From the NCBI GenBank assembly GCA_000002445.1, contig CM000208.1, positions 3,168,001 to 3,232,000 on the forward strand: a DNA stretch of 64,000 nt, in the 5' to 3' direction. The notes below the pieces were generated by a model. It was not told the origin of the DNA, ran no database searches, and saw nothing but the letters and a program-made list of their open reading frames with translations. Below, piece by piece: positions 26,544 to 64,000 of the stretch; the first letter of the stretch is position 1, and every line of letters begins with the position of its first letter. The stretch comes from Trypanosoma brucei. Taxonomy: Eukaryota. The position numbers and the translations under genes are program-made.

Positions 26544-28685
26544 TCACACGAGGCTGCGTAATCGCGCCACCTCCTTGGTATCCAAACCGAGGGTTTCGTT
26601 GCAGTACTCTGAGCGATGTAACACCTCCTGAAGAAACTCTCGAAGTCTGGCTGGGCTACCCCTCAACGAAACTGCCGTCGAGCCATCTCGACCGCCGACA
26701 CGAACAATTCGCCAACGGTTAAGCAACCCGACAGCTGCGGTGAATGCTGCACGGTCAAGTGCAGCAGCAGCATGTGTTCCCATGGACGAGGCAACATCCT
26801 CCAGCAAGTCAACGACGGTACGCACTACACCAGCCTCATGGCGGAGGTATACGTACGTAAGAAGTAAAAACATTTCCCGGGTACAGTAACCCAGTTCAAC
26901 GAGTTTGCATTCGGAAAGCATATCACCAACTAAAAGCGCGTAATTCCTGAGAGGTTTCACCGACCCTGCGCTTTTCCGATTCGCATTGGTAAATTCACCA
27001 CGCCACAATGACTTCACTGCCTCTGGCGCAACACTAAAGACGGCACTACGGATATTTTGCGCAACTTTCAGTTTCGGCGAAGTTCTCTCAAACCACGACA
27101 AAAGTTTACCACAACTGGCACTGCTAAGGAGAGGAATTTCCCCTGAACACACTTCCCCAAAGACAGCAGAAACGGCAGTCATTACTCTTCCCGCCGTCGC
27201 ACCAACGCTTCTCAGTTGCCCAGATAGCACCATGATACGCTGAGCGAAATGAACGTCACTCACAGATTGTTGCGGAGAACGTGCAACAGCAGACAACTCT
27301 GTGAGAACATATCCGGACATCTCAAGCATGGCTGCTTCCAGCAACATCACCTCCGGTGGAGTTAGGTAACCGTTGACTTCTCCTTCCGGGCTCTGATCCT
27401 GCGCCACGCCTGCGCTGACGGCATCAAAACGCCACCCGGTAAACGAATGTGAAGTGGTGCACCCTGAAGCACCCGAATCAGTCACAGATCTCACTTTTTT
27501 CAATCTTCCTCTCTTCGTATTTCTTGCCTTCACAGTATTCACCTTCAGTTCAAGTCGCTCTTTCACTTCCACTAGACACGCACGGGCGACGCAACTAACG
27601 CTCCATGGAAGCAAGGGGATACAACGTGCCTCACACGTTAGTCTACTTGACAAGCGCTTCTCAAGCTGCCGAATGTCTGGTGTTGACGATGTCATCACAA
27701 GAGACATTCCTCCCCCTTGACCATCACTTTCGTGCATAAGGCCAGAAAGCACATAAAGCAGTTGATCGCACCATACTCCAAAACGCTCAACGCGACGAAT
27801 GCAAACAATGAGATTGGTTCCGTGTGTTCTCATTAGCAGAAGGGCACGCTGAAGTGCTGCGAGAGCACTCGACGCCCCCCCCATGGCGTAGGCGGTCGTC
27901 GATGTCACATGAAATGCATCATCATCTTCACTTGCACTTCCATCATCAAGCAACTCATCGGGCACAGCTAACCGTGGTCTCTTTCGGCCAACTTTACCAT
28001 CTTTTTCATGTCCGCTTACCTTTAAATCCTTCGTAACACAGGAGCCTTGTTTCGTACGCGAGGGGCATTCGGCGTCAGTCTGCACAGCTCCTTCAGATAT
28101 TTTGTCCAGCGCCATCAACTTGCTAAAACCAAACAAACTTCCAAAATCAAACGTGCCCTTACTGAAAGAAGTATCAGCAGACCGTAAGCTTTTTGAGTTT
28201 GAGCTCCTCAAGAAAGTGAGCATCTGTTGCCCAATAGATCGAAGGGCATCTTCGTCGCTATTAAGAACGTCACCGTCTAGGTACAAAACAAACGTATTGT
28301 TTCCCTCCATACAGTCTTGAGCAACCAATCTTAGCAGACGGTGCGCGCCACAGCCCCGTGGCCCCCACAACATGTGACACGAGCGGTGGCCAAGGGCACA
28401 TGAGGCCGCTACGGCACTACGTACGGAACGATATACAGCAAGATGCATGCCAAGTTCGTCACGTCGTCCCGAAGGATCTTCTGCGGCATCACGTGTTGTC
28501 ACACCATGGCGCTGTGGACTACGGCCACGCCTCGCAACCTCAAGAAAAGACTTACCCGTACTCGCTGTCAGCTGGGCAAGAACACGGCAGCACTGCACGG
28601 CTAATTGATGTTGTACCGTGGAAAGAAATGACCTCGTAAAACTACAACACTCACCCCCACCGCTTTCACAAAATACTCCTTTCAT
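26544..28685 (-). CDS. Hypothetical protein (713 aa) with degenerate P-loop; possible divergent ORC4/AAA+-like protein
   Basis: A complete ORF. The segment LWGPRGCGAHRLLRLVAQDC...TFVLYLDGDVLNS resembles a Walker-A/AAA+ context but lacks the canonical GKT lysine (GPRGCGAH). Kinetoplastid ORC-like proteins are known to have degenerate nucleotide-binding motifs. The identity is an inference from memory. Confidence 0.4.
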   Translation of the reverse strand: MKGVFCESGGGECCSFTRSFLSTVQHQLAVQCCRVLAQLTASTGKSFLEVARRGRSPQRHGVTTRDAAEDPSGRRDELGMHLAVYRSVRSAVAASCALGHRSCHMLWGPRGCGAHRLLRLVAQDCMEGNNTFVLYLDGDVLNSDEDALRSIGQQMLTFLRSSNSKSLRSADTSFSKGTFDFGSLFGFSKLMALDKISEGAVQTDAECPSRTKQGSCVTKDLKVSGHEKDGKVGRKRPRLAVPDELLDDGSASEDDDAFHVTSTTAYAMGGASSALAALQRALLLMRTHGTNLIVCIRRVERFGVWCDQLLYVLSGLMHESDGQGGGMSLVMTSSTPDIRQLEKRLSSRLTCEARCIPLLPWSVSCVARACLVEVKERLELKVNTVKARNTKRGRLKKVRSVTDSGASGCTTSHSFTGWRFDAVSAGVAQDQSPEGEVNGYLTPPEVMLLEAAMLEMSGYVLTELSAVARSPQQSVSDVHFAQRIMVLSGQLRSVGATAGRVMTAVSAVFGEVCSGEIPLLSSASCGKLLSWFERTSPKLKVAQNIRSAVFSVAPEAVKSLWRGEFTNANRKSAGSVKPLRNYALLVGDMLSECKLVELGYCTREMFLLLTYVYLRHEAGVVRTVVDLLEDVASSMGTHAAAALDRAAFTAAVGLLNRWRIVRVGGRDGSTAVSLRGSPARLREFLQEVLHRSEYCNETLGLDTKEVARLRSLV

Positions 28686-29043
28686 GGAAAAAGAGTTTGG
28701 TAATTTTCCACCTAATTCAGCAAAGAAATAATGAAATGAGAATTATCACATTTCACATTAACACAATCCCGTAGATAACCAAAAAAGAGAGAAAATAAAG
28801 AAAAGCACGAGCAACACTAATGGCTAAACCGAAACCCAGTGGCTGTCATCCACCACCGCTCAACGCAAAATGCACCCTTCCCGACTTACGGTAGACGGCA
28901 AATAAAGTATCAGCAACATCATATGAATTAGAACAGTGTCCCAGGTAGATATTGCACCATGCCTCGTCCGTGTGGCAACTTAAAGTGCGACACGCAGCGG
29001 GCATATTAACAACCGAGCATTAACATAACCATAGCACATGTGT

Positions 29044-29891
29044 ACGCAAGTACGAGCAAGCACAACAAACACCTGGTGGCACAATAAGGAATATCACAGG
29101 GAAGAAACTAGAAGAAAGGAGGGTAGACGGTGTGTACACAAGGCACCGACATACTCGCCTCGCCTCTTGGAAAGCCACCACCCACAACGCACCACCAAAA
29201 AGGCATGCCGTGGCTACGGGCCTCCTCAGAAATAGAAGGTAACACTGAAGAAACAGCAATGGGGGAAATTACTGCAGGTACGTGTCAGTCAAGTACAGCA
29301 CTCTCGCTGAAAGCGTTGGTATCAATCAGCACTAAGTTGTCACTCAGTCGCGCACTACAACTTCTGTCCTCATACACAGCCATGCAGCAGAACATCTCCA
29401 CCACATGTATCACCCCACAATGCATGCAAAGCACGGTGTGGGGCGGTTGTATGGGCGTCGATACAGCAACAGTGAATAAAGATGCAGTGTAAACACACAT
29501 AGCAGGAAGGAGTTAGGGACGGTAAATGCCGGTACAATCAACACCGCTGCTCAACATTTGTACACATTCAAGAGTCCTCATTGGATGTGTCGGTCCGCCT
29601 GTCGTTAGACAGTTTCTCATCGTCGCAGCGGTGTCGTGCCCATAACATGTCACATTTCGCATAGTCCAATGATCCAAGAGTCAAAAGAGAAGGGAAAAAA
29701 GAGTAACGAGGGGAAGAAGGGAGGAATCAGATAGATTGGTAAACGCAAAGTTGGTTTCTCGTTCATTATGGGTCGTCAGTGCGCACTACAACTGCAGTCA
29801 CATCACGCAGAGTAAACGCTATTGGAATATCTCCGCCTCCTGAAATCGCCCCACAACGATTTCTGCACATGTGAGGCGTTAGACAGAGACG
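29044..29891. repeat. Direct repeat copy 1 (848 bp), about 99 percent identical to 34952-35799
   Basis: Read by eye, the two copies match base for base over roughly 848 bp apart from a handful of substitutions. Unique flanks begin at both ends. ORFs inside the repeat (for example 29130..29492) are duplicated verbatim in copy 2 and are probably spurious. Confidence 0.9.
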
Positions 29892-30395
29892 TTGTACTTG
29901 ATATCAGTGTAAAATAAGGACCATGTTGGCACGAAAAAGACAAGACAATGCAGTTGTCATGACATCTTTTCACTGATGCATCCCCTATTCGCATAACTAT
30001 TACGTAAACATAATCACACATTACTCATAACACAAGTTGCTAGGACAAGCGACTTCACTACACGGTGTTGCTACGGAAACATACCTCACTGTGCTAACAT
30101 ACACTGCATCAGAATGCGATTACATGCATCTCAGCGTCACCTGGAAATCTGGGATACAATCGCATCATACACTTGTCTAGTTTCGTAAGCAATGAGTTCT
30201 TGGTCACATACCACAGGTAATGTACTCTCTCAAATGAAAATATTGTGATGAGCACCGCTCGAGTATTCTGTTATGATTCCGTTTGTCGACTCACAATGTG
30301 ACGATGGAAAAGAATGAGGATATCAAGTTATTGCATTTTAGGTTTTCATGTCAACTAGAAAATCAGAGAGCCGACACCACATCCCCTCAGTATCT

Positions 30396-32450
30396 TTACG
30401 CAACTAGCTCCGTATCCATTGCCTTCACCGCCGGAATACAATATTCAAATGAAAGCAGAACAATACCAATATCCCACGCGTCGCCACAGGGCCCCAAGTT
30501 GTTTTCGTGTATAAACGGTAATTCACATTTTTGGTTCGGTATTTGTGAGGTGCGCTTGGAACGGCTCCGTCCAACTTCAATTAATCCCTCATAAACGCCA
30601 CGCTGTAGGTGAGAAGGTCCCGTTACCATTTCACCACTGTTGAGTGAATAAGGTGTACGGTTAGTTTCTACAACATGTGGCATGTGTTGGTCCTCAGTTC
30701 CGAGGATGCATAACGTTGCAGGGGAATCTTTTGCGTCTGCAAGTGGCGACAGTTCCTCACAATAGGGGAGAGGGTGACCACAGCACCCAATAAAACTGTT
30801 GATGAAGGAAGCCGCGGAGCACTTTGATGAAATAGATAAAAATATATCAATAACTTGCTTTAAGAAGTCACATTCGACTGAAGTTTGCTTGCAATGCTCA
30901 CTGGACCAGGAGTACATCATTTCCACGGCTGCGTTGATTTCAACAAAAAGTAAAGGTTTTTTATCTCGGTGAAGAGAGTCTGTTGAAGGCAATGAAACGC
31001 GACCAAAGTTTACCGTCACGTGCTGATGTGGAAATACACACCATTCCCCCAACTCTTGGAGAACAAAGATGACTCCTCCACAAAGAGGCCCTTCCTGCCG
31101 GGAAGCAGACACCACATTTTCCGTATTTCCATATTCGGGTATAAAGCATGCCCCCACAAGAGACTCATTGGAAATAGGGTATCTTTGCAACACCTCAGTT
31201 TCAGAAAGGACAAACCACGGAGGGCAGAGATGCAAGAAGAAACCGCAACAGTCAAAGTGAAAAGGAAGATTGCGTACCGTGCCACCATGTCGCAAGCATA
31301 GTTTGCGTTCGGATATTTCGGTCATTGTGAACCAACAGCATGGCGTTGAAGCTAAGTGGATTTGGGCATCATCATTTTCCTCCATATCTTCATTGTCCAT
31401 ACGATTCTCAAGCTGTACAGGCTCTCCTGTAGCAGCCCAGTAGTTCAGGACCCGCCCTGCATGAAACGAAGAGTAATTAGCGGAATAACGTCTCTGATTT
31501 GCCCGATCACTGAAATCCACATTCATCAATGTGATATCCTCCTCAACATGAAATTGGTGAATGTCTTGCATTCGTGGAAGGAAATATTTTGAAAACGGTC
31601 CACGAAACGGAACAATCCATGCACGCCAATAACCAGTTGAATCGGAACTAGAAGCTGGCAGCTCTATCTCTGAGGACGAAAAAATATCATCAAAAAACCA
31701 TCCATCTTTCTCCCACACAATATGACCTGAATAAGGTGTCTCCACAGCAGAAACTGTCGAGACAGACTCAGCAGCAAGTGATGGTTTGCTTTCCAATGCT
31801 GCTACCATATTCTGATCCATTAGATTTGATCCTTTAGACAGTTGGTGAAGAAACTGCAACCCTCCTTCGGTGCGTCGGAGCTCTTTCTGAAGCAAACGAG
31901 TCCTCATACAATCAGCAATATTCAGTCGCTGTTCGCAACGAAAGAGTTGAATAATGATTGGTGTCGGTGATGCACCGGGAACCTCCGAGGGTTCCACGCT
32001 AACCTTCGTAGTAGACAACAGCAATGACTGAGCGGAACTGCTCCCCACACACCAGTCACGCATTGATGGAACAGGGTTTGCTGAAATCGTGGGGTACCTG
32101 AAATTCCCGTCATTTATATAATTCAGAAGCGTTTCTTGCACCCCTTCCGGACAGTAGTAGCAAGGCGTAGCAGACAGAGGCAAAAGGGAATTCGGCGCCA
32201 CGGTGGGACATCGTGTCTCTCCTGTTCTCTTAAGAAAATCTCTCCTCTTCCGCAATACAATATACCCCCATCGCAGCATCAGTCGAGGTAGACACGGAAA
32301 TGCACTCCGCAGAGCCTCCGCCAAACTATGGAAGGAAATAAATGTCATTACAGTGCAGAGGCCCCTTCCCCACCCTACTTGTGACAAGAACAGAACACAT
32401 GCATCACACATGCAAAAGATAAAAATATATACGTCGACACAAAGTACCAT
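30396..32450 (-). CDS. Hypothetical protein (up to 684 aa)
   Basis: A 2-kb ORF on the coding strand. The extreme N-terminus (MVLCVDVYIFIFCMCDACV) looks like translated UTR, so the real start is probably an internal Met. No domain recognised. Confidence 0.5.
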   Translation of the reverse strand: MVLCVDVYIFIFCMCDACVLFLSQVGWGRGLCTVMTFISFHSLAEALRSAFPCLPRLMLRWGYIVLRKRRDFLKRTGETRCPTVAPNSLLPLSATPCYYCPEGVQETLLNYINDGNFRYPTISANPVPSMRDWCVGSSSAQSLLLSTTKVSVEPSEVPGASPTPIIIQLFRCEQRLNIADCMRTRLLQKELRRTEGGLQFLHQLSKGSNLMDQNMVAALESKPSLAAESVSTVSAVETPYSGHIVWEKDGWFFDDIFSSSEIELPASSSDSTGYWRAWIVPFRGPFSKYFLPRMQDIHQFHVEEDITLMNVDFSDRANQRRYSANYSSFHAGRVLNYWAATGEPVQLENRMDNEDMEENDDAQIHLASTPCCWFTMTEISERKLCLRHGGTVRNLPFHFDCCGFFLHLCPPWFVLSETEVLQRYPISNESLVGACFIPEYGNTENVVSASRQEGPLCGGVIFVLQELGEWCVFPHQHVTVNFGRVSLPSTDSLHRDKKPLLFVEINAAVEMMYSWSSEHCKQTSVECDFLKQVIDIFLSISSKCSAASFINSFIGCCGHPLPYCEELSPLADAKDSPATLCILGTEDQHMPHVVETNRTPYSLNSGEMVTGPSHLQRGVYEGLIEVGRSRSKRTSQIPNQKCELPFIHENNLGPCGDAWDIGIVLLSFEYCIPAVKAMDTELVA

Positions 32451-33521
32451 ATATTAACAGCGCACATAATCATGAACTCATGAACGCAGCGATATTCATA
32501 TCCTGCAAGAACAAAGAATATACCCAATGAAAAGGTATCAATCATCTTTTGACTGGAACCAGGCTACTTTGATCCAACCCTATCAAACTGGTATGGGTAA
32601 AAACGTACCAGTTATTATGACACCTAGATAACACCATGTATTTGAGTGTTGATTATTTAGCCGTTCACACCAATCACCAATGGCAGAAGTCCGTAGAGTA
32701 ACTGGCAAAACCAAATCAGTTGTGTTCACGCGTAGCATATACACCATACCGTGCAACTAATAACGGTACCGATATGCCATTCACACTCACACATCCCACA
32801 GATTCTCCACGCTATCTGTCACCGTGCTTGGCACTTTCACAAGTTCCATCTGCTTCAGCTATGCTACTTCAGTACCACTAATTGTACAAACATATTCCGT
32901 GGCGTATGCCCACACAGACACACACACGTGATAATCCTACTGAAAAGAGGCAATGTGAAGAAGTAAAAACACCGATGAAAGCAATACACAAACAGCGAGT
33001 GGGGAAGGCGACCTACCCGAAAAGAAACATTAAAACGCACATTAACTTTTTTCTAATGGAAAACAATGGGTATCATATCAATGGACGAAAATAATAAAAA
33101 GAATAACAATGCAGGGCAGTGAGCAGAACCACACAATGAGTCAAATGGGAATGCAGCAGCAGCCAACCACGGTTGCAGCAAACATGTCGCCTCGATGTCT
33201 CAATCATAACCCACGTATGGTAGTCTGTGTTACCCTTGGGTTCATACGCCCTCCTAAAGAAACAAGTTGTAAAATGTTATACTACGTCGGAAACTATTTA
33301 TTATTATATCCACTCTCTCCACAGAACCAATCACTCTCTCGTTATTAACACACTAAATTACGGAATAAAAGTTAGACATTAGTGTCACAGCGCTCTTCAG
33401 ATGTTAAGGGGTTTCGATATTAGCGAATAGAATGGGGAGTAAAAAGAAAGTCAAACATATTAAATCATAAATAACAAATAACCAAATATGAGAAGAAGGG
33501 GAAGAATAAAGCATCATGTAC

Positions 33522-34514
33522 TCATTTAGTTATATCAGACAACACCTGCCCACCATGACGCCGCACGAAATCCAGACGGCGGGGCACCATGAATGCCTTC
33601 CCTTTGCCAAGTCGGAAAAAGATGGCAACGGCAAGAAGCCCGCTTAGCATGCCAATAACGCTACCAGCCACTACATCACCGCTGTGGTGACGATTGTCGC
33701 GTAACCGTGACGCAGCAACGGCGCATGCAAAATAAATCGGCAGGAGACCAACGAGCGTGCGCCACACAGATGCACCACTGAAGGCACGCAGAACTGAAAG
33801 GAAGTACATGGCCATAGGCGTGAAAACAGAGAAGGCGCAACCGCTGTGACCTGAAGGGAAAGACCGTCTGCCTTCTGCAGCAACCTTGCACCAATCTTTA
33901 ACTCTGGATGTCGAATTGTAACCTTCGCGTTCCAACCTAGCGAGGAAGTCGGGACGGAGCACACCAGCGTAAACTTTCAGAACTTCAACGATACAAAGGG
34001 CCAATACAACTGAGAAACCGTGCGCCACAACCCAATAATTAGCGGTTTCAAGGAACGTCATTAACCGCTTTGAGCTGCCTTTGTTCTCTGTCGTAAATGA
34101 CCCGTCAGGGCAGTTACCAGTACGTTCCGCGGCAGCATTATTAAACCCGTCGGAAGATACCTCCAGCATCTCTACTGGAGCCCGCGATTCATCAGGGAGA
34201 CGGTTAGACACATGTATATCCAAATACCACTCCCCCTTCGAGGCGAAAAGGGCACGTAAAAACTCCATTATGAAGTAAAATCCAATGGGCGCAACCTCCA
34301 TTATAAGGAGAGTTAACACAGAAAATGTTGAACTCTTTAGCTTGTAGCTTATGGTTGCATCGGTCCACGAAAAACCTCGGCAATACGGTTGAAGGGATTC
34401 CATCCACAGGCAAACGACGAATGCTATCCCAATTAGCAGAAAATAGTCCAAAACGTGAAATACTTTACAGTAGTGCACAAACTTCGAACAGCACGTCCCG
34501 CTTTCGGTGGTCAT
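33522..34514 (-). CDS. PAP2-family lipid phosphate phosphatase (phosphatidic acid phosphatase type 2), multi-pass membrane protein
   Basis: All three PAP2 signature motifs are present in order: K-x6-RP-like (KVYAGVLRPDF), PSGH (SFPSGHSG) and SR-x5-H-x3-D (SRLRDNRHHSGDV). Several hydrophobic helices. Confidence 0.7.
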   Translation of the reverse strand: MTTESGTCCSKFVHYCKVFHVLDYFLLIGIAFVVCLWMESLQPYCRGFSWTDATISYKLKSSTFSVLTLLIMEVAPIGFYFIMEFLRALFASKGEWYLDIHVSNRLPDESRAPVEMLEVSSDGFNNAAAERTGNCPDGSFTTENKGSSKRLMTFLETANYWVVAHGFSVVLALCIVEVLKVYAGVLRPDFLARLEREGYNSTSRVKDWCKVAAEGRRSFPSGHSGCAFSVFTPMAMYFLSVLRAFSGASVWRTLVGLLPIYFACAVAASRLRDNRHHSGDVVAGSVIGMLSGLLAVAIFFRLGKGKAFMVPRRLDFVRRHGGQVLSDITK

Positions 34515-34951
34515 TTTCGCACTTCTTGAAATGATTAATTACTCCCAAGAACTACAACTTGTATCAGACACGGGGGAAAGCAAAATGTAGAGAGCACTAA
34601 AGGAAGACAACAAACTCGGAAAGAAAATACCAGGCAAGAAAATAGGCGGTCTTTCACTACCACCAACCAGCAAACATCACACAACCATACGGTCTGCAAA
34701 TGCATTATTATGAAACTCAGTGCGCTGCGCCACATTGGCACGGTAACAAGAGGCACACAGCACAAAAAAAGACCATACCACACAACTGCCACCCACAATA
34801 ACATCTACAAGCCGACAACACGGGGCTCAGCTTTAACGATACTGACAAGTGCACTCCGGTAAGTGTAGTGATATTTTTCAAAAAGCACAACATAAGCCTC
34901 ACTTCTACACCACCGATAACGCGTGCAAATAAGCCTGGCGGTGAAACTCCA

Positions 34952-35799
34952 ACGCAAGTACGAGCAAGCACAGCAAACACCTGGTGGCACAATAAGGAAT
35001 ATCACAGGGAAGAAACTAGAAGAAAGGAGGATAGGCGGTGTGTACACAAGGCACCGACATACTCGCCTCGCCTCTTGGAAAGCCACCACCCACAACGCAC
35101 CACCAAAAAGGCATGCCGTGGCTACGGGCCTCCTCAGAAATAGAAGGTAACACTGAAGAAACAGCAATGGGGGAAATTACTGCAGGTACGTGTCAGTCAA
35201 GTACAGCACTCTCGCTGAAAGCGTTGGTATCAATCAGCACTAAGTTGTCACTCAGTCGCGCACTACAACTTCTGTCCTCATACACAGCCATGCAGCAGAA
35301 CATCTCCGCCACATGTATCACCCCACAATGCATGCAAAGCACGGTGTGGGGCGGTTGTATGGGCGTCGATACAGCAACAGTGAATAAAGATGCAGTGTAA
35401 ACACACATAGCAGGAAGGAGTTAGGGACGGTAAATGCCGGTACAATCAACACCGCTGCTCAACATTTGTACACATTCAAGAGTCCTCATTGGATGTGTCG
35501 GTCCGCCTGTCGTTAGACAGTTTCTCATCGTCGCAGCGGTGTCGTGCCCATAACATGTCACATTTCGCATAGTCCAATGATCCAAGAGTCAAAAGAGAAG
35601 GGAAAAAAGAGTAACGAGGGGAAGAAGGGAGGAATCAGATAGATTGGTAAACGCAAAGTTGGTTTCTCGTTCATTATGGGTCGTCAGTGCGCACTACAAC
35701 TGCAGTCACATCACGCAGAGTAAACGCTATTGGAATATCTCCGCCTCCTGAAATCGCCCCACAACGATTTCTGCACATGTGAGGCGTTAGACAGAGACG
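34952..35799. repeat. Direct repeat copy 2 (848 bp), about 99 percent identical to 29044-29891
   Basis: Same evidence as copy 1. The two copies lie 5908 bp apart in direct orientation and flank the hypothetical gene 30396..32450 and the PAP2 gene. Confidence 0.9.
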
Positions 35800-36711
35800 G
35801 TAACCCGCAACAGCAGCTGCTGCAGGAAGAATGCATGTCCTCGGCCAGTACGGAATATTTATCACATTGGTTTCTATGGCGGCCCACTTGGCGTTAACCG
35901 ATTCTCCATCTAACACCATCGCCCTGGTGAGAAGGTTTTCTGTCTATTTTTCTTGGGTGATGAGTGATAAGCGTATTTTGGTACTGCCTTAGGTTTGTAC
36001 ATATGAAAAGAAATAACGAGGAAATAAAAACAAAGTTTTGATTATCCTGCAGCATCAGTCTACTTCATTGCAGGCAGAAAACGCTCATTTACGTATGAAC
36101 ATATTCATATCATCCCCATCTTCAAGTACGCTTCCCACGCACGTACACAAAGTGGTAAGTGGGAATGTACGAAAAGAGAAGAATGGAAGAATAATACTTT
36201 AAATACCCAGTCGCACTTGCGGACACCCTCTAACGATCCCAGCGGGAACGGTTGAGGTGGCACATACAAGATAATTAGCATAATCAAATATGGAAAAAAA
36301 AAAGAAAAGTAAAAGGGACAGAGCACGGTAGAAACAAAAAAGAAAAAGAAAGCAACTCCGTACACCTTCTGTTTTTTTTTCACTGCCAAAGCAGGACCGC
36401 TCTGTGCCACACACTGGCAAAACAAAAGCGGAAAATGTGGAGGGGAAAAGGACAGGATGAAAGGTAATAAAAAAAAGAAAATTGAAGAAACGTGTCGCAT
36501 GATATAAAAAAGGAGATATAACGTCCCTCTTTTATAATCGGTGGCATTGCTGCTTTGGTCTTTTTTATGGCTGAGCTGATTCATACCGGCCCGAGTTTGC
36601 TCTTTGTGACATTGTGAAGAGGAGTTGCCAGTTAAGGTCCACACAACACCGTCACCTACGGTAGCAAGTAGATACTGCAAACTCACACACACCTGGGGGT
36701 GGGGGATTTAA

Positions 36712-36731
36712 AAAATAATAATAATAATAAT
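36712..36731. repeat. (AAT)n microsatellite
   Basis: aataataataataataat sits in a low-complexity intergenic region. Confidence 0.85.
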
Positions 36732-36988
36732 TGTAAAACGAAGTAAGGCATCTCTCTTATAGCCGCAGCCGCCATTACGAGCACAGGGAAGGTAGACATT
36801 TGCTCACGCTGCAGGCAGTAAGTTATCATATAAATAAATCAAGAAAAAAATTACGCAAGGGGGGATGCACTCATTCCCTTCCGGACACGGAACAGAAAAT
36901 TGAAGAAACAGGTGTGTAAGTAAAACACAAAAAATAAGGTACCACATAGCACGGTGGATTAACCAAAGGACTAAAAGAAAGAAGTTGT

Positions 36989-36989
36989 G

Positions 36990-37024
<35 letters not shown>
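36989..37024. repeat. Compound (CA)n(TA)n microsatellite
   Basis: gcacacacacacacacacatatatatatatatatat. Confidence 0.9.
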
Positions 37025-38143
37025 GAGCAAATACCCCCGCGGAATGAATGATTACGCAAAAACCACGGAAAGGGGAAGTAGTTGTACCCAAGATGTAAGC
37101 ACTGCAGCTGTAAAAAAAAAAAAGTGTTCGGTGCCCAACCACATGACCCCGCCCACAGCCGAGAAGCAACACTTGCAATAAAACGGCGGAAACAAGAGCG
37201 ACACACAAACAGTTGGAAGTAACCGAAGTATAAATCCTTCCCTTGGGCTTTACGAACGCGTTTTGGTATTGAAAAGGAAATTCGAGGAGATTTTAAATGC
37301 ACACACTTGTGGAGGGTCAGCCGTTCAGAAGTGACGACGCTCATCCTCAGTTGGTAGCCTCTCTTCCATTACCCCACACGTTTCAATTTTACGTCCCCTC
37401 GACTACAACTGAGTGTGTTTTACACTTGCCTTGCTTATCCACACCGTCTTTCCTTCCGCTTTTCTACAGCAAGATCGCACGTTTTCGCCACGTTTTGCAC
37501 TTATCAAAAAAAAATATATATTCGTTTTGTTTTTACCCCCTTTAGCCCCACGTTTTTTTCTTTTGTTCGCTCCGGCGCACGCACAGCCACATGCATGTTT
37601 CGCCATGCGTTGCTGTTCATCAACGTTTACAGTCGTATGACGATAATAAGGAAGACGATGATAGTAATAATAGTAATAATAACAGTAAGGAAATAATTAA
37701 AAGAGCTAAAAGAAAAAGTAAAGATCGGTAGATCAAAATGGTGACAAACACATCACCACACACGTATTTACGTACGTGCACGTACATATATATATACGTT
37801 TTTGAAGACGTAAGGTACTGCAACCACATAGAGTATTTTAAATGTGTTGACCGCAAGCACTCCCAGATGCACATCACTGTGGTAATACCCGCGTGCCCAC
37901 TTTCCTTCAGTGGAGATATCCCACAAGCTGCTTTCCATCTCATTCAGTCTGGTAACAGCCCCTTCAGTCGCACTTGCACCAACTTTGTCCAGAGCTTCCG
38001 CTGCTGTTTTATGAGCGTTGACGTACAATACTTTGCCTTCACGTCGAAACCCGCCGCCAGCGAAACTTTCAATTGGTTTGCAACTGTTTCTACAATTTGT
38101 TTTCTTGCTTCCCTTCCCTCGTCTGCCTCATCTCCCATCCCCG

Positions 38144-38152
38144 CCCCCCCCC
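38144..38152. repeat. C9 homopolymer
   Basis: ccccccccc lies just downstream of the citrate synthase stop. Confidence 0.8.
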
Positions 38153-38180
38153 AGTTTTTGAACCGCTGGGACGCGCTACC

Positions 38181-39635
38181 CTACGCTATGTTGTACTTTG
38201 TGAGAAGTGACTCACTTGTCATCGTTTTGGGTCTCTCGATAGGTCGCCCCTGCAGTCGATCCCATACGATTCCTGTAAGGACCCCCAGCTGTCGCGAAAG
38301 ACCGAATAGAACTGTGTAAAATAACTGTTCTTTCATCCCATAGTGCTGAAGAAGTACACCGGATTGGGCATCAACGTTGGGGAACGGATTCCTCACCTTA
38401 CCATGTTTCTTGAGGATTCCGGGCATGATCTCGTAGATGGCGTCAACGAGTATAAAAAGCTCATCATTAGGGAAGTTATTTTTACAGTACTCGCGGAAGC
38501 AGGTGTAACGGGGGTCAGTCATACCAAGAACAGCATGCCCATAACCTGGCACCACCCTTTTGGCGTTGAGCACATCCCAAGTGAGTTTTTCCAGCTCCGC
38601 GGCAAGCCGCTTGCGATCATGAAGGTCCACACCTGCAGCTTTGCATTTGTCGCGCATCTCAAATAAATATGTTAACACCTCTTGGTTTGCCAAACCGTGA
38701 AGTGGGCCAGCGAGGCCGGCGAGACCTGCAACAAGGGATAGATATGGGTCACTGAGTGCTGATGCAACCAAAACTGTGGCGTGAGCAGACACGTTGCCAC
38801 CTTCATGGTCCGCATGGAGGCAAAGGTAAAGGCGCATGCAGTCCCAGAATGACTCATCTTTATATCCCAGCATGTTTGTAAAGTTTGCTGCCCAATCAAG
38901 ATTAGGGTCACTGGGGTTGGCCAGTTGCGCCTTACCAGTTGCGAGACGATTGTACACAATGGCCGCCACATGTGAAGAGCGAGCGATCAAGTCAAGGCTG
39001 TCATCCAGTGCATACTCCCAATAGTTTGTTTTGTTCGCCTTCCCCTGGGAATACGCTGTGGCAAACTTCGAGTACGTTTGGAGGGCCATTAAACCAGCGC
39101 CAAACTGAGTCATGGGATGAGAGTTATCCGGCAATGAGGCAATTGTCTTCACGGCAGCACTGATTGCACGCTCGTCTGCACGGCGGTGCAATTCTTCGTG
39201 CATTTCTTTCACCTGCCGCTCGTTTGGTATTGTGCCGGTCACAAGCAACCACAGCATTCCCTCAGGGAGCGGGGAGCTTCCGCCACGCCACGATTTGGGA
39301 AGTTTTTCGCAGCACTCCGAAATGGTGAGCCCCCGGAAGCGAATACCAACTTCCTTATCGAGATATGATGGTTCATAAACGAAACCGGTAACTCCGCGCA
39401 TGCCACCGTACATGCTGGACACCGTGGACTCTGAAAGCTTATCCCCGCCATGTTTGGCTATCAGTTGCTTAATGCGAGGCGCATCACTCTGGTGTTTTTT
39501 CAGTATAGACAGTTTCAGTTCATCAAAGATAGGCGAACCGCCGGCGGCAGCACAAAACAATGAGGGCGAAGATGAAAACCCTCGTAACATAGCTCCCCTC
39601 ACGATTCCAGATGAGTAACGAGCACGCATGCACAT
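38181..39635 (-). CDS. CS: Citrate synthase (mitochondrial)
   Basis: Full-length similarity to eukaryotic citrate synthase, including the GYGHAVL signature and catalytic His/Asp context (HADHEGGNVSAH). Start is set at Met25 (MCMRARYSSGIVRGAMLRGFSSS, presequence-like; 'cat' at 39633-39635). The ORF track extends to 39707. Confidence 0.9.
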   Translation of the reverse strand: MCMRARYSSGIVRGAMLRGFSSSPSLFCAAAGGSPIFDELKLSILKKHQSDAPRIKQLIAKHGGDKLSESTVSSMYGGMRGVTGFVYEPSYLDKEVGIRFRGLTISECCEKLPKSWRGGSSPLPEGMLWLLVTGTIPNERQVKEMHEELHRRADERAISAAVKTIASLPDNSHPMTQFGAGLMALQTYSKFATAYSQGKANKTNYWEYALDDSLDLIARSSHVAAIVYNRLATGKAQLANPSDPNLDWAANFTNMLGYKDESFWDCMRLYLCLHADHEGGNVSAHATVLVASALSDPYLSLVAGLAGLAGPLHGLANQEVLTYLFEMRDKCKAAGVDLHDRKRLAAELEKLTWDVLNAKRVVPGYGHAVLGMTDPRYTCFREYCKNNFPNDELFILVDAIYEIMPGILKKHGKVRNPFPNVDAQSGVLLQHYGMKEQLFYTVLFGLSRQLGVLTGIVWDRLQGRPIERPKTMTSESLLTKYNIA

Positions 39636-39996
39636 TGGAAATAAATCCTCCCGTTTAGTGATGGTGTTACCTTTCAAATGCAAATCTGACAAATTATAGA
39701 GGAACAACTGGCGGTATTTTCCTTTCTCTTTTTTGCTGTTGCTTTTTATATCCCTTTGTATGCCTTTAACTGCGAATTTTGCTCAGAACGCGGCGAGCCA
39801 CAGATTAAAATAAACAGAACGAAAAGGGTGCAACAGCTCTGTGGACAATGGAGTCCCCTCAGAGGGGTGGGGTTGGAGAGACCATGTTAAATATTAAAAA
39901 ATGAGATGCAACGGGGAAGTCGTGTATTTGGAAACGGCGTATTGTGCCCACACACAATTTTCAAGCTTCCTGCTGCCGCAACCGCACGGCGACGAT

Positions 39997-52316: not shown

Positions 52317-53144
52317 TTACGCAGCCTCCTTTAGACACTTAGGGTCCCAACCAACGGCAAACCAGGGATGGGAAATGATACCCTCAAGGGTGATACGGTT
52401 TTGGGGGTCCACAGTCAACATGCGCTTGACTAAATCCCTTACAGCCTCAGACACCTGCCGCAGCATAGCGTACTCACCGCGCTTGACTTTCTCAAGAAGG
52501 GATTTCTGGTTACGATCCTCAAAGGGGAGTTTTCCAGCGAGCATGACGTAAAGAATGACACCACAACTCCAAATATCAGCGGCGAATGCGTTGTGGTCGC
52601 TTCCACTAAGTGCCTCGGGAGCAATATAGTTCGGGGTCCCCATAGCCCTGCTGGAAGGGAGGTCACTGTCGCCACTGCCATTGCTGCAAAAGCCAAAATC
52701 ACTAATTTTCAGCACTCCGACAGCATCAAGCAGAAGATTTTCGGGCTTCAAGTCACGGTGAGCGAACCCCTTGCCGTGGCAGTGGTGAACGCCGGCGATG
52801 AGCTGTTGGAAGTAGCGTCGTGCAGTCGGTTCGTCAAAGCGTTTCGCAGCAACGATTTTGTCAAACAGCTCACCGCCCGATACGAACTCTAACACCAGGC
52901 AGTAGTGAGTTGGCGTTTCCTTGAAATCGTGAAATGCAATTATATTTTCATGCTTAAATACGCGCATGGCCTCTACTTCCCGCATCAATTGGCCTTCCAT
53001 TTCTTCCTTTCGCAGTTTAGCCTTGTCTATGATCTTAACTGCCCACCTCCGTCGTTGCTCATCCGTTGCCAAGCGGACGGTGGAGAAGGTACCAGATCCA
53101 AGTTTTTGGGAAACCGTGTACGGTGGAAGAACAAAATTTTCCAT
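52317..53144 (-). CDS. Ser/Thr protein kinase, catalytic domain only (CAMK-like), tandem copy 1
   Basis: GSGTFSTV (glycine loop), VAVK-type AVKIIDK, HRDLKPENLLLD, DFG, GTPNYIAPE and DIWSCGVILY are all present. The 275-aa product ends ...HPWF.... Confidence 0.85.
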   Translation of the reverse strand: MENFVLPPYTVSQKLGSGTFSTVRLATDEQRRRWAVKIIDKAKLRKEEMEGQLMREVEAMRVFKHENIIAFHDFKETPTHYCLVLEFVSGGELFDKIVAAKRFDEPTARRYFQQLIAGVHHCHGKGFAHRDLKPENLLLDAVGVLKISDFGFCSNGSGDSDLPSSRAMGTPNYIAPEALSGSDHNAFAADIWSCGVILYVMLAGKLPFEDRNQKSLLEKVKRGEYAMLRQVSEAVRDLVKRMLTVDPQNRITLEGIISHPWFAVGWDPKCLKEAA

Positions 53145-54486: not shown

Positions 54487-55347
54487 TCACGCCGACTCGT
54501 TCAGACACTTAGGGTCCCAATCAACGACAAACCAGGGATGGGAAATGATAGCCTCAAGGGTGATACGCTTCTTAGGATTTACGACAAGCATGCGCGCGAT
54601 TAAGTCCTTTGCTGCGTCTGACACGTGCCGGACCATGCTGTACTCGCCACGCTCGATCCGTGCAAGAAGATGTCTCATGCTCCGATCCTCAAAAGGAAGT
54701 CGTCCAGCGAGCATGACGTAAAGAATGACACCGCAACTCCAAATGTCAGCACAGAGACCGTTGTAGCCGCGCTCCATGAGGACCTCAGGTGCCACATAGT
54801 TGGGAGTGCCACACACTGTTTTTAGCAGGATGTCCTGCTGCCGGTTTCCGAGACCAAAATCACTAATTTTCAGCACTCCGACAGCATCAAGCAGAAGATT
54901 TTCGGGCTTCAAGTCACGGTGAGCGAACCCCTTGCCGTGGCAGTGGTGAACGCCAGCGATGAGCTGTTGGAAGTAGCGTCGTGCAGTCGGTTCGTCAAAG
55001 CGTTTCGCAGCAACGATTTTGTCAAACAGCTCCCCGCCCGATACGAACTCTAACACAAGATAGTAATGGTTCGCTGATTCGAGCACGTCGTGAAGATCAA
55101 TAACATTCCTATGTTTAATGGATCGCATTATAGCAACTTCACGAAGCATTTGATCCTCCATCTTTTCCTTCCGAAGTCGAGTTTTGTCTATGATCTTAAC
55201 GGCAAATTTCTTACCACCTTCATCTGTTGCCAACCTTACCGTTGAGAAGTTTCCGAACCCGAGTTTTTCCCCCAAACAATACGGTCCCAGCCGCACAGGA
55301 GGTGTCATGGCAGTGAAGCCCTCTGTTACACCGGTGTTCACCCTCAC
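54487..55347 (-). CDS. Ser/Thr protein kinase, catalytic domain only (CAMK-like), tandem copy 2 (paralog of 52317..53144)
   Basis: Same kinase motifs as copy 1. Residues YYLVLEFVSGGELFDKIVAAKRFDEPTARRYFQQLIAGVHHCHGKGFAHRDLKPENLLLDAVGVLKISDFG are identical in the two proteins. An alternative start is at Met14 (MTPPVRLG; 'cat' at 55306-55308). Confidence 0.85.
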   Translation of the reverse strand: MRVNTGVTEGFTAMTPPVRLGPYCLGEKLGFGNFSTVRLATDEGGKKFAVKIIDKTRLRKEKMEDQMLREVAIMRSIKHRNVIDLHDVLESANHYYLVLEFVSGGELFDKIVAAKRFDEPTARRYFQQLIAGVHHCHGKGFAHRDLKPENLLLDAVGVLKISDFGLGNRQQDILLKTVCGTPNYVAPEVLMERGYNGLCADIWSCGVILYVMLAGRLPFEDRSMRHLLARIERGEYSMVRHVSDAAKDLIARMLVVNPKKRITLEAIISHPWFVVDWDPKCLNESA

Positions 55348-63062: not shown

Positions 63063-64000
63063 TACAGCTGCTTGATAATATATATATATATATATATTTA
63101 TCAGCAGAAGTTAGGTGCTCAAATACCCGCTTGGTTGCAACAAGGTCACTTAAGGGTGACGGTGTGTAATATATACGATAGCAGACAAAAGAAATAGGAA
63201 GAAGTGCGTCCAGAAATTCCCACCGAAGAAGAGATTTGACAAAGCTCTCACCCTTTAGAACGAAAGCATCAAAATAAACAAAATGAAAAAATAAGAGGGA
63301 AGGCCGCAAAACAGAGTAGTAGAACGTTGCTGCAAACAGCAGTGACGGAAGAAACAACATCATTGAAAGCTCACGTACGCAGTCGCGGTACTACTAGGCA
63401 ACGATCCCCGAATAGGCCAATCAAAAGAACACTGAAGCACCTTTTAGCTGGCAGACAAGAGTACTGCACCCTCTGTTCTCAGGCCATGGACAACAGGTTG
63501 CCAACAATAAGGAAAATGCACACACATCTGTATGTACGCATCTATGCGGGCAGAAGTGGGTTCAGCGTCACAATTTTCTCAAATGCAGCAAGCATCGTTA
63601 GCATTAAACACATCCGTAAGGTGAAAGCCTCAGTCAAACAAAGCACGATGTACAAAACAAAGGGATTCATCGTCCACTTCCATAAAAGTCAATGCGGCAA
63701 TATAACGTCGACACTTTTGGATAAAGGGAAATCGAGACAATGTGCTCCATTAACGCTTCTCATTCAACTTATAACGCTTTACCTCGGCACACACGACATG
63801 CCCCCTCTCCTGACCTTCACATGCGTTTAGACGAGGGAAAAGCACAAAGGTTCATGTGATGCAGCACTAGCACATACTCAGACTCAAGTGCACACGCACC
63901 TTTATTGACTTGGTCCCACATATGTGTGACACAGAATGATAGCGCAAAAAAGAAAAAGACGGCAACATCCGTCGACAGCAACACCGATGATAACAACCGG

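What the first reader, a model, noticed from the sequence alone, without database searches (positions are those of the whole stretch)
29044..35799. Near-identical 848-bp direct repeats 5.9 kb apart bracketing two genes (hypothetical 684-aa protein and PAP2 phosphatase)
Copy 1 (29044-29891) and copy 2 (34952-35799) differ by only a handful of substitutions, while the flanks are unrelated, so this is a recent duplication or ongoing homogenisation. The copies are direct, do not correspond to any recognisable transposon terminus, and each sits a few hundred bp upstream (in the transcription direction) of a gene start, the ORC4-like gene and the PAP2 gene respectively. They could be duplicated UTR or processing-signal modules, or recombination substrates able to delete or amplify the intervening 5-kb segment, as direct repeats do in trypanosomatid gene amplification.
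Basis: seen in the sequence. Interest (0 to 1): 0.5.

Follow-up and report, generated by a model that had tools for sequence, protein, structure and literature searches.

The report
Repeated snoRNA gene cluster TB10Cs4
The two near-identical 848-bp repeats are two copies of an already described Trypanosoma brucei small nucleolar RNA gene cluster (TB10Cs4) that guides ribosomal RNA modification and processing, so the finding is real but ordinary.

Summary
Window 29044-29891 and 34952-35799 are direct repeats of 848 bp with 4 substitutions, no gaps and unrelated flanks, and they bracket a PAP2 gene and a 684-aa gene.

The window is T. brucei TREU927 chromosome 10. Each repeat is one unit of the published snoRNA cluster TB10Cs4, lying on the transcribed (-) strand.
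- Rfam finds TB10Cs4H2, H3 and H4 above gathering score in both copies.
- Four published oligonucleotides for the characterised C/D snoRNA TB10Cs4C3 match both copies exactly.
- Two more C/D snoRNAs are conserved in T. cruzi and T. theileri.

The arrangement is also present in the T. b. gambiense and T. b. equiperdum assemblies, so it is not an artefact. A third unit lies outside the window, inside a 4.9-kb segmental duplication.

In T. cruzi the homologous cluster forms a tandem array of about 5.7 units directly upstream of ORC4, the position of copy 1 in T. brucei.

Copies within one genome differ less (3-5 sites) than orthologous copies do between TREU927 and the other strains (7-12). TREU927 copy 1 also carries an 18-nt copy-2-type end. 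The copies are therefore being homogenised by gene conversion.

"Ongoing homogenisation" is supported. Already known; low interest.

The parts
29044..29891 (-). Repeat copy 1: one unit of snoRNA cluster TB10Cs4, lying between the 684-aa gene and TbORC4
   Evidence: Self-BLAST; Rfam hits; same position as the T. cruzi array, 684-homologue - array - ORC4
34952..35799 (-). Repeat copy 2: a second TB10Cs4 unit, upstream of the PAP2 gene
   Evidence: Self-BLAST; Rfam hits
29827..29892 (-). H/ACA-like snoRNA TB10Cs4H2, copy 1 (copy 2 at 35735-35800). Its 5' end coincides with the repeat boundary
   Evidence: Rfam RF01862: 78.7 and 77.3 bits against gathering score 50
29723..29811 (-). C/D snoRNA 'Ca', probably TB10Cs4C2; approximate ends (copy 2 at about 35631-35719). 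C box GUGAUGU, guide CAGUUGUAGUGCGCA followed by D' CUGA, D box CUGA
   Evidence: Boxes and the 19-nt guide are conserved in T. cruzi while the rest has diverged. The name is inferred from gene order only
29548..29627 (-). C/D snoRNA TB10Cs4C3, 80 nt, copy 1 (copy 2 at 35456-35535)
   Evidence: Exact matches of four published oligonucleotides: PMC6411936 Table S1 and the PMC9841430 probe, mapped. About 90% identical to T. cruzi and T. theileri
29394..29459 (-). H/ACA-like snoRNA TB10Cs4H3, copy 1 (copy 2 at 35302-35367). Carries one of the four copy differences, at 29400
   Evidence: Rfam RF01533: 81.4 and 86.1 bits against gathering score 45
29281..29380 (-). C/D snoRNA 'Cb', probably TB10Cs4C4; approximate ends (copy 2 at about 35189-35288). 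Guide AAGUUGUAGUGCGCGA followed by D' CUGA, D box CUGA
   Evidence: Guide and boxes conserved in T. cruzi and T. theileri. The guide shares UUGUAGUGCGCG with a published antisense SSU rRNA oligonucleotide. The fifth nucleotide upstream of D' is C, which fits the Gm target reported for C4 in PMC3273796. The name is inferred
29165..29227 (-). H/ACA-like snoRNA TB10Cs4H4, copy 1 (copy 2 at 35073-35135)
   Evidence: Rfam RF01534: 88.4 bits against gathering score 50, in both copies
29044..29061 (-). The last 18 nt of copy 1. They are copy-2-type in TREU927 only, which marks the end of a gene-conversion tract
   Evidence: Seven-copy alignment: copy 1 of IVM-t1 and DAL972 and copy 3 of IVM-t1 carry a different sequence here, so their repeat is 830 bp
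28810..33707 (-). 4.9-kb segment (last ~62 codons of PAP2, the 684-aa gene, repeat copy 1, plus 234 bp). It is duplicated outside the window between the Aha1 and lipase/PP5 genes and carries the third snoRNA unit
   Evidence: BLAST of L002 (IVM-t1) and L006 (DAL972) against the window; Rfam on L002 and L006; TREU927 has a 99%-identical paralogue, EAN78740
33522..34514 (-). PAP2-family phosphatase gene between the repeats
   Evidence: Pfam PF01569, E = 2.8e-26
30396..32450 (-). 684-aa conserved hypothetical gene between the repeats (the real start is probably Met35)
   Evidence: Exact match to EAN78712; homologues lie upstream of the snoRNA array in T. cruzi and T. theileri
26544..28685 (-). 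TbORC4 (Tb927.10.13380), downstream neighbour of copy 1 and the conserved synteny anchor
   Evidence: Exact match to EAN78711; PMC3297607 and PMC4889932 use this gene identifier

Best explanation
Each 848-bp repeat is one unit of the known T. brucei snoRNA gene cluster TB10Cs4. On the transcribed (-) strand a unit carries six small nucleolar RNA genes, in the order H2, C/D 'Ca', C3, H3, C/D 'Cb', H4.

How it works (from the literature, not tested here). The units have no promoter of their own. They are transcribed by RNA polymerase II as part of the long polycistronic unit that covers the window, and the precursor is cut into individual snoRNAs. These assemble into C/D and H/ACA snoRNPs that 2'-O-methylate and pseudouridylate rRNA. 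C3 and C4 also help cleave the large-subunit pre-rRNA.

Why several copies (inferred). Multiple copies raise dosage in a genome without gene-specific promoters. The copies stay nearly identical because gene conversion between them continues (shown here by strain comparison), not because the duplication is recent.

Origin of the bracketing (inferred). The ancestral state was probably a cluster or array between the 684-aa gene homologue and ORC4, as in T. cruzi. In the T. brucei lineage one unit came to lie upstream of PAP2, and a 4.9-kb block carrying another unit was copied about 76-115 kb away. The exact path is unresolved.
For: Identity of the window: TREU927 chromosome 10, with exact protein matches to EAN78711 and EAN78712.

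snoRNA content:
- Rfam TB10Cs4H2, H3 and H4 score 77-88 bits (gathering 45-50, E = 1e-14 to 1e-18) once in each copy, all on the - strand, and nowhere else in the 64 kb.
- Four published TB10Cs4C3 oligonucleotides match both copies exactly.
- Against T. cruzi and T. theileri, only six short blocks of the unit are conserved: five by BLAST (for H2 a 26-nt match to T. theileri only) plus H2 by Rfam. The two blocks without an Rfam family or a published probe have C, D' and D boxes and an invariant rRNA-antisense guide.

Published function and expression: PMC3273796, PMC6411936, PMC4855143 Table S1, PMC6562600.

Not an artefact: the same two units with the same junctions occur in T. b. equiperdum IVM-t1 and T. 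b. gambiense DAL972.

Synteny: the T. cruzi order is 684-homologue, then about 5.65 tandem units (period about 1290 bp, 98.4% identical), then ORC4.

Gene conversion:
- Seven sites are shared by both copies within TREU927 and differ from both copies of IVM-t1. No site shows the opposite, position-specific pattern.
- Over the 830-bp core, within-genome distances are 3-5; orthologous distances between TREU927 and the other strains are 7-12.
- TREU927 copy 1 has acquired an 18-nt copy-2-type end.
Against: - Expression and processing of these particular copies were not tested here; they rest on published work.
- The names C2 and C4 for the two further C/D genes are inferred from gene order and guide sequence, because Liang et al. 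2005 and the cluster figure of PMC3273796 could not be read.
- IVM-t1 and DAL972 are close to each other: orthologous distances are 3 and 7 against within-genome distances of 3-5. The conversion signal therefore rests mainly on TREU927 against the other two, and on the 18-nt tract.
- How a unit came to lie upstream of both PAP2 and the 684-aa gene is not explained.
Confidence: 0.96

Rival explanations
1. Duplicated untranslated-region or RNA-processing-signal modules. On this view the repeat is kept because it supplies splice-acceptor, polyadenylation or stability signals to the flanking mRNAs (the 684-aa gene and ORC4; the upstream transcript and PAP2).
For: Both copies lie in intergenic regions a few hundred bp upstream of a start codon. 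The unit contains two pyrimidine-rich tracts on the - strand, at about 29676-29727 and 29100-29135. PMC3273796 notes that some snoRNA clusters lie within predicted 3' UTRs.
Against: The only parts of the unit conserved across Trypanosoma species are the six snoRNA blocks. The spacers, pyrimidine tracts included, give no cross-species BLAST match. In T. cruzi the unit is tandemly repeated about 5.65 times with no mRNA between the units, which is not what an mRNA signal module would look like. At most this is a side effect of where the snoRNA units sit.
Confidence: 0.03
2. A dispersed mobile element or a retroposed copy.
For: At least three copies exist in the genome, one of them about 76-115 kb away.
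Against: There are no target-site duplications, terminal inverted repeats or poly(A) tails at the unit ends or at the ends of the 4.9-kb block. There is no coding capacity with a family match. The content is fully accounted for by snoRNA genes. All copies are on the same chromosome, in the same orientation as the transcription unit.
Confidence: 0.005
3. An assembly artefact, or a very recent strain-specific duplication with no homogenisation.
For: Near-identity of 99.5% is what a recent duplication or a mis-join would give. The short-read T. equiperdum assembly has a 4844-bp contig carrying just PAP2 and the 684-aa gene, so assemblies do break at these repeats.
Against: Three independent assemblies share the same collinear structure and junctions. 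Shared within-genome substitutions and the 18-nt tract require exchange after the strains split.
Confidence: 0.005

Closest known systems
T. brucei snoRNA cluster TB10Cs4 (named in Liang et al. 2005, RNA 11:619; re-examined in PMC3273796 and PMC6411936)
   Same: It is this cluster. H2, H3 and H4 match the Rfam families built from it. C3 matches the published oligonucleotides exactly. The chromosome, the strand relative to the transcription unit and the mixed C/D plus H/ACA organisation all agree.
   Different: Nothing in kind. Added here: the units are not head-to-tail but separated by two protein-coding genes; a third unit lies in a 4.9-kb duplication; and there is direct evidence of gene conversion. 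I could not read the figure giving the published repeat number.
Homologous snoRNA array upstream of ORC4 in T. cruzi (L004), and the partly duplicated cluster in T. theileri (L005)
   Same: The same six snoRNA genes, the same neighbours (684-aa gene homologue upstream, ORC4 downstream), and high within-species identity between units (98.4% and 99.3%).
   Different: T. cruzi has about 5.65 head-to-tail units of about 1290 bp. T. theileri has a 420-bp partial unit (H3, Cb, H4) repeated 2.5 kb apart around a 302-aa ORF. C3 lies between H4 and H2 in those species but between Ca and H3 in T. brucei.
Tandem gene arrays of T. brucei that evolve in concert (Jackson 2007, PMC1855330)
   Same: Multi-copy genes in a promoter-less polycistronic setting, kept alike by gene conversion, with dosage as the likely benefit.
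   Different: Those are protein-coding tandem arrays. Here the unit is a non-coding RNA cluster, and the copies are interspersed at about 5 kb and 76-115 kb.
Direct-repeat-mediated amplification and deletion in Leishmania and other trypanosomatids
   Same: Long direct repeats flank a gene-bearing segment and could recombine.
   Different: No amplified or deleted form was seen in the three assemblies. The repeats exist for their own gene content, not as dispersed repeats such as SIDER.

Membership tests
Trypanosomatid snoRNA cluster TB10Cs4 | Contains the H/ACA-like snoRNAs TB10Cs4H2, H3 and H4 (single hairpin plus AGA box) | tested here: met
   Rfam RF01862, RF01533 and RF01534 are all above gathering score in both copies, over the full model length
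Trypanosomatid snoRNA cluster TB10Cs4 | Contains the C/D snoRNA TB10Cs4C3 | tested here: met
   Four published oligonucleotides match exactly at 29548-29627 and 35456-35535
Trypanosomatid snoRNA cluster TB10Cs4 | Located on T. brucei chromosome 10 | tested here: met
   Window proteins are identical to EAN78711 and EAN78712 of the 4.05-Mb TREU927 record. IVM-t1 CM010681.1 and DAL972 FN554973.1 are collinear
Trypanosomatid snoRNA cluster TB10Cs4 | Interspersed C/D and H/ACA genes on the same strand as the surrounding Pol II transcription unit | tested here: met
   All six snoRNA blocks and all large ORFs of the window are on the - strand
Trypanosomatid snoRNA cluster TB10Cs4 | The RNAs are expressed, processed and act on rRNA | not testable with these tools
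   Published only: RNA-seq and RNAi in PMC3273796, PMC6411936 and PMC4855143
Trypanosomatid snoRNA cluster TB10Cs4 | The two further C/D genes are TB10Cs4C2 and TB10Cs4C4 | tested here: inconclusive
   Boxes and guides are conserved, and the Cb guide fits the reported Gm target on SSU rRNA.
Transposable element or retroposon (RIME/ingi/SIDER type) | Target-site duplication, poly(A) tail or terminal repeats, and many dispersed copies | tested here: not met
   None at the ends. Only three copies were seen, all on chromosome 10. Direct comparison with RIME/ingi consensus sequences was not possible
Concertedly evolving repeat family | Paralogues within a genome are more alike than orthologues between genomes, although the duplication predates the split | tested here: met
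   Within-genome distances are 3-5; TREU927 against the other strains gives 7-12. There are seven shared-within-strain sites and none position-specific, plus the 18-nt tract

The most novel reading that the evidence does not exclude
The snoRNA units may act as portable blocks of homology that have reshaped this locus and still exchange sequence over 6 kb and about 76-115 kb. That would account for the break-up of an ancestral tandem array, the placement of a unit upstream of a lineage-specific PAP2 gene, and the spread of a 4.9-kb block. Crossovers between the units could then still generate deletions or circles carrying PAP2 and the 684-aa gene in some cells or strains.
Probability: 0.2. Interest if true: 0.3.

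Novelty: already known. Interest (0 to 1): 0.08.

Why it matters
It matters little beyond correct annotation. A tool-less reader flagged as unexplained a block that is a published, functionally studied snoRNA cluster; two of its RNAs, C3 and C4, are needed for trypanosome large-subunit rRNA processing.

The small additions made here are:
- The cluster's copies in T. brucei are interspersed with protein-coding genes rather than tandem.
- The homologous cluster is a tandem array at the same syntenic site in T. cruzi.
- The dispersed copies are demonstrably homogenised by gene conversion.

These are a tidy example of concerted evolution of non-coding RNA genes. They do not open a new question.

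Tried and rejected
- Exact look-ups of the two TREU927 684-aa proteins returned no DNA, so the third copy could be examined only in IVM-t1 and DAL972.
- Liang et al. 2005 could not be read by DOI or PMC id, and PMC3273796 has no supplement held. The published repeat number and the C1/C2/C4/H1 sequences are therefore unavailable.
- ORFs inside the repeat (120 aa on either strand) have no Pfam match and were dismissed as spurious.
- There are no tRNAs in the window and no tandem repeats above score 60.
- I looked for a remnant of a 684-like gene upstream of copy 2, which would support a model of tandem duplication followed by loss. tblastn found none.
- I tried to date the PAP2 insertion. The best T. 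cruzi and T. theileri PAP2 homologues lie in a different locus. The T. congolense chromosome-10 orthologue has no contig in the collection, so the origin of copy 2's position stays open.
- A C/D-like sequence at about 30105-30175, outside the repeat, has boxes but no terminal stem and no cross-species match. It was not accepted as a gene.
Full report
**Observation.** A self-comparison of the window finds 29044-29891 and 34952-35799 as direct repeats of 848 bp. They have 4 mismatches and no gaps (99.53% identity). The mismatches are at 29065, 29123, 29127 and 29400. Similarity stops abruptly at both ends. All large ORFs of the window are on the - strand. In the direction of transcription the order is: citrate synthase (38181-39707), copy 2, a PAP2-family gene (33522-34514; Pfam E = 2.8e-26), a 684-aa gene (30396-32450), copy 1, a 713-aa gene (26544-28685) and a Tctex-1 gene.

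**Where the window comes from.** The 684-aa and 713-aa proteins are identical to EAN78712 and EAN78711 of Trypanosoma brucei brucei TREU927, on a 4.05-Mb record, chromosome 10. The 713-aa gene is Tb927.10.13380, studied as TbORC4 (PMC3297607, PMC4889932). That assignment rests on my recollection of the identifier plus the occurrence of the identifier in those papers.

**What the repeat is.** A scan of all 64 kb against Rfam gives six hits above gathering score, and all six lie inside the two repeats on the - strand.
- TB10Cs4H2 at 29827-29892 and 35735-35800.
- TB10Cs4H3 at 29394-29459 and 35302-35367.
- TB10Cs4H4 at 29165-29227 and 35073-35135.

These are the H/ACA-like snoRNAs of the T. brucei cluster called TB10Cs4. 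A permissive scan adds nothing else credible.

The C/D snoRNA TB10Cs4C3 has been studied by RNAi and cross-linking. Both 80-nt amplicon primers, a biotinylated antisense oligonucleotide (PMC6411936 Table S1) and a northern probe (PMC9841430) match exactly at 29548-29627 and 35456-35535.

Two further blocks are C/D snoRNAs by their anatomy: about 29723-29811 ('Ca') and about 29281-29380 ('Cb'). Each has a C box, a guide ending in a D' box (CAGUUGUAGUGCGCA-CUGA and AAGUUGUAGUGCGCGA-CUGA) and a D box. In alignments with T. cruzi and T. theileri the boxes and guides are invariant while the rest has diverged. The Cb guide shares 12 nt with a published antisense SSU rRNA oligonucleotide. Its fifth position upstream of D' would pair with a G, which fits the Gm target reported for TB10Cs4C4. 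From gene order I infer that Ca is C2 and Cb is C4, but I could not check the published sequences.

The six genes cover about 464 of the 848 bp; the rest is spacer.

**How it works.** Published work gives the mechanism. I did not test it here.
- Trypanosomatid snoRNA genes sit in clusters of mixed C/D and H/ACA genes. [quoted passage not shown]
- H2 and H4 are assigned to pseudouridines in SSU rRNA and H3 to one in LSU rRNA. All three are expressed in both life-cycle stages (PMC4855143 Table S1).
- C3 guides two SSU methylations, and its depletion impairs LSU pre-rRNA processing (PMC6411936).
- C4 depletion causes accumulation of the 5.9-kb precursor (PMC3273796).

**Not an artefact, and not only two copies.** The collinear regions of T. 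b. equiperdum IVM-t1 (L001, 98.6% identical over 22 kb) and T. b. gambiense DAL972 (L003) have the same two units at the same places.

The 684-aa gene has a 99%-identical paralogue in TREU927. In IVM-t1 and DAL972 that paralogue lies in a 4.9-kb block equal to window 33707 down to 28810. The block holds the last ~62 codons of PAP2, the 684-aa gene, a complete snoRNA unit and 234 bp more. It is inserted between an Aha1 gene and a lipase/PP5 pair, about 76 kb (IVM-t1) or 115 kb (DAL972) upstream. Its ends are sharp and have no poly(A) tail. The T. brucei group therefore has at least three units. Because the block contains a truncated PAP2 end, it was copied from the ORC4 locus and not the reverse (inference).

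**Homogenisation.**
- A four-way alignment of TREU927 and IVM-t1 shows seven sites where both copies of a strain agree and differ from both copies of the other strain. No site shows the position-specific pattern.
- With seven copies, over the 830-bp core, within-genome distances are 4, 5 and 3. Orthologous distances between TREU927 and the other strains are 7-12.
- In IVM-t1 and DAL972 the repeat is only 830 bp. Copy 1 (in both strains) and copy 3 (IVM-t1) end in a different 18 nt. In TREU927, copy 1 carries the copy-2 version of those 18 nt (29044-29061). This is the footprint of a copy-2-to-copy-1 conversion tract in the TREU927 lineage.
- Since the junctions are otherwise shared by all three strains, the duplication is older than their divergence. 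The near-identity is therefore due to continuing gene conversion.
- The 4.9-kb blocks show the same tendency: 99.1-99.4% identity within a genome against 98.2-98.5% between genomes.

**Comparison with other trypanosomes.**
- In T. cruzi BrA4 (L004) a homologue of the 684-aa gene (30% identity) is followed by a tandem array of the same snoRNAs. The array has a period of about 1290 bp, about 5.65 units and 98.4% identity between units, and it ends about 440 bp before ORC4.
- In T. theileri (L005) the 684-aa homologue is followed by a partial unit, a 302-aa ORF, a fuller unit, a methyltransferase gene and ORC4. A 420-bp repeat there is 99.3% identical and 2.5 kb apart.
- The cluster next to ORC4 is therefore old, and copy 1 occupies the ancestral position.
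- C3 lies between H4 and H2 in T. cruzi and T. theileri but between Ca and H3 in T. brucei.
- The window's PAP2 gene has no counterpart beside ORC4 in those species. Their best homologues (38-39% identity) are in another locus. T. congolense has a chromosome-10 orthologue whose DNA I could not obtain.
- How a unit came to lie upstream of both PAP2 and the 684-aa gene is unresolved. No remnant of a second 684-like gene is detectable upstream of copy 2.

**Rivals.**
- The UTR or processing-signal reading is not needed. Cross-species conservation is confined to the snoRNA blocks. In T. cruzi the units follow each other with no mRNA in between.
- A mobile element is excluded as far as the ends can show.
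- An assembly artefact is excluded by three concordant assemblies.
- The repeats could still mediate deletion or excision of the 5-kb segment, but none of the three assemblies shows it.

**Verdict.** This is a real feature, correctly described, and fully explained by a known and functionally characterised snoRNA cluster. It is already known. The interspersed arrangement and the conversion footprint are minor additions.

Noticed in passing
window 28810-33707 (second copy outside the window; L002 8354-13254, L006 4635-9539): A 4.9-kb segmental duplication on chromosome 10 carries a truncated PAP2 3' end (annotated as a 72-aa ORF in two assemblies), the 684-aa gene and a third snoRNA unit. Identity is 99.1-99.4% within a genome. 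The distance between the two blocks differs between assemblies (about 76 kb against about 115 kb).
   Followed up: partly
window 52317-53144 and 54487-55347 (- strand): Two neighbouring protein kinase genes (275 and 286 aa; Pfam Pkinase E of about 1e-73) share 82% nucleotide identity over about 600 bp. They are an older tandem paralogue pair and the only other long repeat in the window.
   Followed up: partly
window 29548-29627 against L004 and L005: The position of the C3 snoRNA within the cluster differs between lineages: between Ca and H3 in T. brucei, but between H4 and H2 in T. cruzi and T. theileri.
   Followed up: partly
window about 30105-30175 (- strand): A C/D-like sequence (AUGAUGC ... 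CUGA ... CUGA) lies about 215-285 nt upstream of copy 1, outside the repeat but inside the 4.9-kb block. It has no terminal stem and no cross-species match. It might be a further member of the cluster (C1?) or nothing.
   Followed up: no
window 32348-32450: The first 34 codons of the 684-aa ORF look non-coding. The DAL972 annotation starts at Met35 (650 aa), and similarity to T. theileri and T. cruzi begins at residues 34 and 98.
   Followed up: partly
window 34515-38180: The 3.7 kb between citrate synthase and PAP2 contains only low-complexity, pyrimidine-rich ORFs (195 and 157 aa, annotated as hypothetical genes in other assemblies) besides snoRNA copy 2. It is probably non-coding.
   Followed up: no
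window 63068-63107: A short (TA)n tract flanked by inverted arms (GCTGCTTGATAA ... TTATCAGCAGAAG) forms a 40-nt palindrome.
   Followed up: no
L001 4172-5160: In the IVM-t1 assembly the PAP2 reading frame is split by a frameshift near codon 172, and neither PAP2 nor the adjacent 684-aa gene is annotated. This is probably a long-read indel error rather than a pseudogene.
   Followed up: no
L005 4324-4743 and 6826-7245: T. theileri independently has a 420-bp, 99.3%-identical partial snoRNA unit (H3, Cb, H4) repeated 2.5 kb apart around a 302-aa ORF with no Pfam match. This parallels the T. brucei arrangement.
   Followed up: partly
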